From contig NC_085844.1 of NCBI RefSeq assembly GCF_035594765.1, positions 10,121,923 to 10,185,922 of the forward strand: DNA of 64,000 nucleotides, written 5' to 3'. The DNA is from Anolis carolinensis. Lineage: Eukaryota. Every line of letters begins with the position of its first letter. Positions within the stretch are counted from its first letter, which is position 1. Both the position numbers and the translations under genes were made by a program. The notes under the pieces were generated by a model. That model was not told the origin of the DNA and made no database searches. It saw only the letters and a program-made list of their open reading frames with translations. Below are positions 12,986 through 14,001 of the stretch, one piece after another.

Positions 12986-14001
12986 GTCTATGTATGAAGA
13001 TGGACACCGTTGGAATTTTTTTTCTATATACAGAGTTTTCATGCAATTATATTGATTTTAACATAGGAAACATCTCAATTCATCATCTTGCCATAAATGG
13101 ATCTTCAAATAACATTTCAAATAACCTTCTAATTGTAAAAATGATCAACATTGTTATTATTCTAATCTGCCTTTTGGGACTTCTTGGAAATGGAAGGGTC
13201 ATTTGGCTTCTTGGCTTCAACAATAAGAGGAATCCTTTCACAACCTATATCATGAATCTCTCCATTGCTGATTTTGGGGTCCTCACCTGCCTGCTTGGCA
13301 TTGCTTCTTTTGTAATTGCATTGCATTGGTACGGTGGAAGCTATGCTATCTGTCTCTGCTTTCACATAGTCCTTGAACTCCTTTTCTTCACTTATTCTTC
13401 CAGCCAGTTTTTGTTGACAATCATTAGCATTGACAGGTGTGTGGCTGTTCTCTTCCCAATTTGGCATCGGTGCCACCGACCCCCATATTTATCCACTGTT
13501 GTTTGTGCCATAGTTTGGATACTCTCCTCTCTGCTCTCTGGAATTCATTTCACATTTTTTGTGCTCAAGAAATATGCAAGCACCCTATTTTTCTACCAGA
13601 TCACTCCAAATATTCTGCTTTGCGCCCCTCTCATGATCATCTCTACTTTGACTCTGTTCCTCAAAGTCTGCTGTAAACGGAAGCAACACCAGCGAGGAAA
13701 GCTTGTTACAGCCATTTTGCTCACACTCCTGTTTTTCCTCCTCTTTTGTTTTCCACTTAATGTTTCTTATGTAATCAGACTTAGTTTTTATGGCGATGAC
13801 TTGGCTTTCCTTCTGAGATGGATTGGTTTTGCCTGTGCTTCTCTGAACAGTAGCATCAACCCACTGATCTATTTCTTAGTCGGGAGGAGGCAAAAGAAGG
13901 GTCGGGCCAAAGTCTCCATGAAGGTTGCACTTGAGAGGGTTTTCAAGGATGAGCAAGACACTGTGGAAGAAGAAACACCTATGGAAGAAAGCCATGTATA
14001 A
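12986..14001 (+). CDS. MRGPR/MAS-like GPCR gene 2, main exon. The 7TM ORF is intact from ATG 12994/13000 but +1 out of frame with the upstream exon.
   Basis: Full 7TM motifs (DRC, FPLN, NPLIY); acceptor TATTTGCAG|G at 12986; T8 at 13016-13023. Confidence 0.9.

What the first reader, a model, noticed from the sequence alone, without database searches (positions are those of the whole stretch)
12986..13055. Gene 2 is frameshifted by one T in a T8 run, with rescue ATGs in the new frame
Seen: splicing 9559 to 12986 reads WSMYEDGHRWNFFSIYRVFMQLY* (TGA at 13053). Removing one T from 13016-13023 makes it gap-free collinear with gene 1 (SMYEDGHRWNFFLYTE vs SFYKHGLKCLLMLYTD; 353 aa). With T8, ATGs at 12994 and 13000 (aagATGg) are in frame with the intact 7TM and the upstream ATG becomes an overlapping uORF. 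It could be a null or hypomorphic allele, a slippage polymorphism that switches N-termini, or a homopolymer assembly error.
Basis: partly seen in the sequence, partly recalled or inferred. Interest (0 to 1): 0.7.

Follow-up and report, generated by a model that had tools for sequence, protein, structure and literature searches.

The report
Real frameshift displaces lizard receptor's start
One copy of a duplicated Mas-related receptor gene in the green anole carries a real extra base that cuts its original front end off from the otherwise intact receptor, which likely lowers protein output and likely marks an ordinary early step of gene decay in a fast-changing receptor cluster.

Summary
The +1 frameshift is real, not an assembly error: T8 (13016-13023) stands in 4 of 4 spliced RNA contigs from 3 studies and in two RefSeq versions of the protein. 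The ancestral N-terminal frame (homologous to paralogues) now ends at TGA 13053-13055 as a 55-64-codon overlapping uORF. The 7TM frame is intact and is opened by ATG 10619 (RefSeq, 343 aa, Anolis carolinensis 'MRGPRH'), 12994, 13000 or 13141; the first is the ninth ATG of the mRNA, in weak context. That the extra base is a T of the run is not shown: it can lie anywhere in 13006-13023. No T7 was seen; contigs hide rare forms. Two further damaging variants occur in single records. Most likely a young, transcribed, low-output allele in a birth-and-death GPCR cluster; a working receptor with a relocated start is the main rival. The homopolymer where window and RNA really disagree is C5/C4 at 10607-10611. 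Modest interest.

The parts
8721..8853 (+). Exon A (5' exon; 8721 is the start of the longest contig, the true start site is unknown); holds upstream ATGs 8783, 8823, 8838
   Evidence: (joint with GT..AG ends, 4 of 4 runs)
9481..9559 (+). Exon B; ancestral start codons 9486, 9501 (strong context), 9513; now the start of the overlapping uORF
10583..10634 (+).
10607..10611 (+). C5 run in the window; C4 in 5 of 5 RNA runs laid (allele or assembly error of this genome)
12986..14138 (+). Exon C, last exon: rest of the N-terminus, whole 7TM, stop at 13999-14001, short 3' UTR
13006..13023 (+). Interval that holds the extra base; includes the T8 run 13016-13023
9486..13055 (+). Ancestral-frame ORF over exons B, M, C: 64/59/55 codons from ATG 9486/9501/9513, stop TGA 13053-13055; overlaps ATGs 10619, 12994, 13000
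10619..14001 (+). Receptor ORF in the new frame: 343 aa from 10619, 335 from 12994, 333 from 13000 (strong context), 286 from 13141 (start of TM1)
4426..5383 (+). Gene 1 last exon (sister copy); its exon B (1823-1901) joined to it gives an open 343-aa frame

Best explanation
Gene 2 of an Anolis Mas-related GPCR cluster carries a real one-base gain at the start of its last exon, so the ancestral N-terminal frame stops at 13055 and overlaps the first in-frame starts of the intact seven-helix frame, which likely cuts receptor output sharply and likely leaves only a minor, N-terminally altered product made by leaky scanning or reinitiation. Shown: the lesion, the four-exon mRNA, which frame is ancestral, the order and context of the ATGs, the intact 7TM. 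Inferred: most ribosomes start at 9486/9501/9513 and stop past ATGs 10619, 12994 and 13000; a few scan through to 10619/13000 or reinitiate at 13141, 85 bases after the uORF stop. Inferred: the lesion is young and common, and the copy is under relaxed constraint, an early stage of loss.
For: T8 without a gap in 4 of 4 RNA contigs from 3 studies and the same N-terminal frame in XP_003219523.3 and .2, which differ at one residue. Frame 0 over exons B-M-C matches the Sceloporus paralogue P0018 (score 67, 0 of 300 shuffles; other frames 16 and 26), also P0023 (0/300) and P0014 (2/300), weakly P0123, P0013, P0038 (17, 18, 43 of 300). Eight ATGs precede 10619, which has neither a -3 purine nor +4 G, while 9501 has both. 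None of the 4 AGs between 12987 and 13149 would restore the old frame by splicing. Further lesions in single records: a 1-base loss at 13378 in 1 of 4 contigs, which truncates the protein in TM3; R167W in P0121 at a column with R in 55 of 58 rows; C5 in the window itself, a second break of the old frame. 7 of the 38 matches in this cluster have stops inside, so decay is common here.
Against: The 7TM shows no decay: gene 2 departs at 4 of 86 highly conserved columns against 11 for gene 1 and 11 for gene 3; its end branch is short (0.11 against 0.43 for gene 1; quick tree); polarised changes are 7 synonymous and 9 non-synonymous (omega about 0.4, but P = 0.07 against neutrality). The mRNA is present and fully spliced in 5 of 5 runs laid. 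The new-frame protein keeps three N-glycosylation sequons and folds as a 7TM (pTM 0.80; residues 1-45 below pLDDT 50). The 13378 loss and R167W each rest on one record and may be errors. No translation data were tested.
Confidence: 0.55

Rival explanations
1. Working receptor with a relocated start: the N-terminus is dispensable, translation moved to ATG 10619/13000 or 13141, exons A, B and most of M became leader, and the gene stays under selection.
For: Conserved 7TM and short branch; T8 in all 6 records examined; N-termini of 58 relatives vary from 14 to 134 residues before TM1; starts have moved downstream before in this subclade (gene 3 starts inside its exon B after a stop); many distant paralogues have an in-frame Met in the last exon (crude acceptor picks, 28 of 30 loci parsed); the two closest A. 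sagrei proteins are annotated at 286 aa from the TM1 Met.
Against: Three overlapping in-context ATGs of the old frame remain intact upstream; a long-settled relocation would be expected to have lost them (inference). Single-record damaging variants. The A. sagrei starts are automatic annotations whose DNA I could not read.
Confidence: 0.28
2. Slippage switch: T7/T8 varies between animals, or RNA polymerase drops a T on the run, so the full 370-379-aa ancestral receptor is still made in part.
For: With C4 and T7 the old frame is fully open, 379/374/370 aa. Rescue of a frameshift by transcript slippage on an A9 run gave about 15% full-length dystrophin (PMC12946587, abstract read).
Against: No T7 in 4 of 4 contigs or in two RefSeq versions. 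The precedent is an A9 run gaining a base, not a T8 run losing one. T8 runs are common here (15 in the window; gene 1 has one in frame in its 7TM). The window haplotype (C5) could not be rescued this way.
Confidence: 0.12
3. Homopolymer assembly error; the gene is intact.
For: An 8-base run in a long-contig assembly; the nearby C5/C4 mismatch shows that this assembly and the RNA can differ at a run.
Against: Independent RNA contigs from 3 studies and an older protein version all read T8.
Confidence: 0.02

Closest known systems
[quoted passage not shown]
   Same: Identical to the new-frame ORF from ATG 10619.
   Different: The record presents an intact protein; its first residues come from a non-ancestral frame, and the overlapping uORF is not visible in the protein record.
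Mammalian MAS1 / MRGPRD, E, X1-X4
   Same: Best solved-structure matches (MAS1 E 6.5e-48, MRGPRD 5.1e-40); no W6.48, no TM3-ECL2 disulfide, short ECL2.
   Different: Lacks the C4.64-C5.33 pair described as conserved in MRGPRs (PMC9287403, passages read); has a multi-exon coded N-terminus; lies in an Anolis-only subclade.
Young transcribed pseudogenes / loss-of-function alleles in birth-and-death GPCR clusters (concept recalled; listings only)
   Same: Tandem cluster with broken copies, frameshift, further single-record lesions.
   Different: A full 7TM ORF with in-frame ATGs remains, so it cannot be filed as a pseudogene.
5' frameshift alleles rescued by downstream initiation (e.g. human RAG1, NEMO; recalled, searches returned nothing)
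   Same: Early stop followed by in-frame ATGs upstream of the functional core.
   Different: Here the allele appears to be the common one in the species, and three of the four rescue ATGs lie inside the uORF, so they need leaky scanning rather than reinitiation.
Transcript-slippage rescue (DMD c.2281delG, PMC12946587)
   Same: Frameshift at a mononucleotide run.
   Different: No slipped transcript seen here; shorter run, opposite direction.

Membership tests
Class A GPCR | 7tm_1 domain, seven helices, DRY-like and NPxxY motifs | tested here: met
   Pfam 68.5 bits over cut-off 30.5; model with helices H46-84 to H276-306 plus H8; R156, N297, P298, Y301 invariant in 58 rows
MAS/MRGPR receptors | Closest solved relatives are MAS1/MRGPRs | tested here: met
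   17 top rows, E 6.5e-48 to 4.4e-35; next family 6.5e-22
MAS/MRGPR receptors | No W6.48 toggle switch | tested here: met
   C260 two before P262; no W in this column in 58 rows; feature from PMC9287403
MAS/MRGPR receptors | No TM3-ECL2 disulfide; short ECL2 | tested here: met
   No Cys in residues 190-213; TM4 ends 198, TM5 starts 203 in the model
MAS/MRGPR receptors (mammalian type) | C4.64-C5.33 disulfide | tested here: not met
   0 Cys in gene 2; 0 of 58 squamate rows have two Cys in that segment. It is therefore filed as a squamate MAS-related receptor, not as a mammalian-type MRGPR
Mammalian MRGPRH orthologue | One-to-one orthology | not tested
   No mammalian rows in the tree; PMC6504862 (passages) says the reptile cluster may be orthologous or a new subtype
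Overlapping uORF | Upstream ATG in the mRNA, out of frame, stop downstream of the main start | tested here: met
Overlapping uORF | uORF is translated and represses the main ORF | not testable with these tools
   No ribosome profiling available
Transcribed pseudogene | Disabling lesion against the ancestral ORF | tested here: met
Transcribed pseudogene | No intact coding frame left | tested here: not met
   343-aa ORF with full 7TM
Transcribed pseudogene | Neutral evolution of the old coding sequence | tested here: inconclusive
   7 synonymous and 9 non-synonymous polarised changes, P = 0.07
Homopolymer slippage switch | Both run lengths present in DNA or RNA | tested here: inconclusive
   T8 only in 4 of 4 contigs; contigs drop rare variants; no raw reads were offered

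The most novel reading that the evidence does not exclude
A vertebrate receptor caught exchanging its extracellular N-terminus for one read from another frame, with the old N-terminus kept as a translational brake, and the T8 run acting as a reversible switch (allelic or transcript-level) between a long ancestral and a short new receptor form.
Probability: 0.08. Interest if true: 0.6.

Novelty: new member of a known kind. Interest (0 to 1): 0.25.

Why it matters
It corrects a gene model: the annotated 343-aa protein looks intact but its front end is read in a non-ancestral frame behind a strong overlapping uORF, so counts of 'intact' receptors in this cluster may overstate the working ones. 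If protein is still made, it is a clean natural test of how a GPCR tolerates start-codon relocation. The ligand and role of these lizard receptors are unknown, which limits the weight.

Tried and rejected
Assembly error at T8: rejected. Direct B-to-C splice, and with it a 348-aa frame from ATG 9529: not seen in RNA; with exon M included that ATG gives only 13 codons. Splice rescue by another acceptor: none of 4 AGs restores the old frame. No listed run is on record as RNA; the five laid are taken as RNA because they are spliced at GT..AG. No DNA run was laid (both lay calls went to RNA; 5 of the 20 holders were laid), so allele frequencies are untested. Exons A-B and exon C were laid as two separate stretches; exon M was read from loose ends and contig lengths. 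One search timed out and was rerun. The careful tree did not finish; the quick tree is cited. Earlier findings of the scan: none by place or by sequence. Literature: 'Anolis'+'MRGPRH' gave one general GPCR survey; searches gave nothing on this gene or allele; subscription journals are not covered and no supplements were read.

Full report
Setting. The window holds five 7TM open frames, all Pfam 7tm_1. [quoted passage not shown] The own genome has 42 matches at E 1e-20 or better, 38 of them in one 0.4-Mb cluster around the window; 7 of these 38 have stops inside. In a quick tree of 41 proteins gene 2 groups with gene 1 and two A. sagrei proteins (SH-aLRT 97), next to gene 3 (96): an Anolis-only subclade among the rows given.

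The observation. The distance from the last-exon acceptor to the GNG of TM1 is 200 bases in gene 2 and 163, 175 and 205 in genes 1, 3 and 4, so gene 2 alone has a net +1. Where the base was gained is not fixed: any deletion in 13006-13023 gives 30-31 of 49 matches to gene 1, and against gene 3 the gap is 13 bases. A T7-to-T8 slip is the simplest guess, not a result.

Is T8 real? Yes. Four contigs from three studies cover exon C with no gap at the run. The older protein version XP_003219523.2 / UniRef G1K8A9 has the same N-terminal frame and differs at one residue, R167W; that it stems from the earlier AnoCar2.0 assembly of another animal is recalled, not shown by a call. Contigs drop rare variants and no DNA run was laid, so a rare T7 allele is not excluded.

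The real mRNA. In 4 of 4 runs exon C is preceded by the end of an exon at 10583-10634; in 4 of 4 runs exon A (to 8853) joins exon B (9481-9559) over a GT..AG intron and B continues into that exon M. Three contigs (1291, 1385, 1356 bases) appear in both calls, and each leaves 49 bases between the laid pieces, which makes exon M 51 bases: the RNA has C4 where the window has C5 (5 of 5 runs).

Which frame is ancestral. Translating B-M-C (C4) up to the T run, frame 0 aligns with the N-terminus of Sceloporus P0018 across both small exons (score 67, 0 of 300 shuffles), and with P0023 (0/300) and P0014 (2/300); three other targets are weak (17, 18, 43 of 300); the frame RefSeq uses shows no such match (best 10 of 300). 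Gene 1 joined B-to-C is open for 343 aa. With C4 and T7 gene 2 would give 379/374/370 aa. The annotated start is therefore in a secondary frame.

How it most likely works. From 8721 the mRNA has eight ATGs before 10619. Three (9486, 9501, 9513) open the old frame, all with a -3 purine and 9501 also with +4 G, and run 64, 59 and 55 codons to 13055, past 10619, 12994 and 13000. ATG 10619 and 12994 are in weak context, 13000 in strong; 13141, at the start of TM1, lies 85 bases after the uORF stop and would give 286 aa with no extracellular N-terminus. By the scanning model (established knowledge) an overlapping uORF in good context takes most ribosomes, and reinitiation after about 60 codons is poor; so I infer low receptor output. 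No acceptor in the first 160 bases of exon C restores the old frame. The uORF stop lies in the last exon, so junction-dependent decay is not expected (inference), in line with the mRNA being found.

Selection. Against decay: 4 departures at 86 highly conserved columns, fewer than genes 1 and 3 (11 each); short end branch; pairwise dN/dS with gene 1 of 0.65 (0.46-0.92); 7 synonymous and 9 non-synonymous polarised changes, P = 0.07; a confident 7TM model with a low-confidence first 45 residues. For relaxation: a 1-base loss at 13378 in one of four contigs, truncating in TM3, R167W at a column with R in 55 of 58 rows, and C5 in the window; the only other coding difference seen, 13411, is synonymous. 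Each damaging variant rests on one record. A young lesion fits both sets; an old functional relocation fits the first only, but remains open at about 0.3.

Comparison with what is known. The protein works like a MAS/MRGPR receptor (no W6.48, no TM3-ECL2 disulfide), but lacks the C4.64-C5.33 pair that PMC9287403 (passages read) calls conserved in MRGPRs, as do all 58 squamate rows. PMC6504862 (passages) notes a reptile cluster near MRGPRH of unsure orthology. PMC12946587 (abstract and opening) is the precedent for slippage rescue. Nine searches found nothing on this allele in the held library; other papers were seen as listings only.

Verdict. A real frameshift with a corrected anatomy; an ordinary kind of event in a fast-turnover receptor cluster, with a small chance of a true switch. 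Interest 0.25.

Noticed in passing
window 10607-10611: Window has C5, all 5 RNA runs laid have C4: a second break of the old frame in this genome's allele, or a homopolymer error of the assembly. A10605G is also seen in 4 of the 5 runs.
   Followed up: partly
window 13378: One-base loss in the contig of run X14 (depth 19.5), truncating the receptor in TM3; possible null allele or contig error.
   Followed up: partly
window 13468-13470: Arg codon CGG is Trp in the older RefSeq/UniRef protein P0121, at a column with R in 55 of 58 rows.
   Followed up: partly
window 9481-9629 and 1823-1970: Genes 1 and 2 share 74 of 78 bases in exon B and 69 of 69 just after it, while their 7TM has dS 0.29: likely a recent gene-conversion tract.
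   Followed up: partly
window 1902-4425: Gene 1 has no recognisable exon M homologue; its intron holds reverse-strand reading frames at about 2352-3535 that look like an RTE-type LINE (label recalled, not tested). Databases start gene 1 at two different places (307 and 323 aa), neither in exon B.
   Followed up: partly
window 25063-25139: Gene 3's exon B homologue has a stop in its 5' part and starts at an inner ATG (25092): another downstream move of the start.
   Followed up: partly
window 13016-13034: The T8 run forms a pyrimidine tract before an AG at 13032-13033, a possible cryptic acceptor; it would keep the broken frame.
   Followed up: yes
P0002, P0003 (A. sagrei): The two closest A. 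sagrei proteins are annotated at 286 aa from the TM1 Met, the same position as ATG 13141; their DNA could not be read.
   Followed up: no
window 25769-26659 (-): 297-codon open frame that looks like a CR1-type reverse transcriptase fragment (label recalled, not tested).
   Followed up: no
alignment A2, TM4-TM5: None of 58 squamate MAS-related proteins has two cysteines in the TM4-ECL2-TM5 segment, unlike mammalian MRGPRs.
   Followed up: partly
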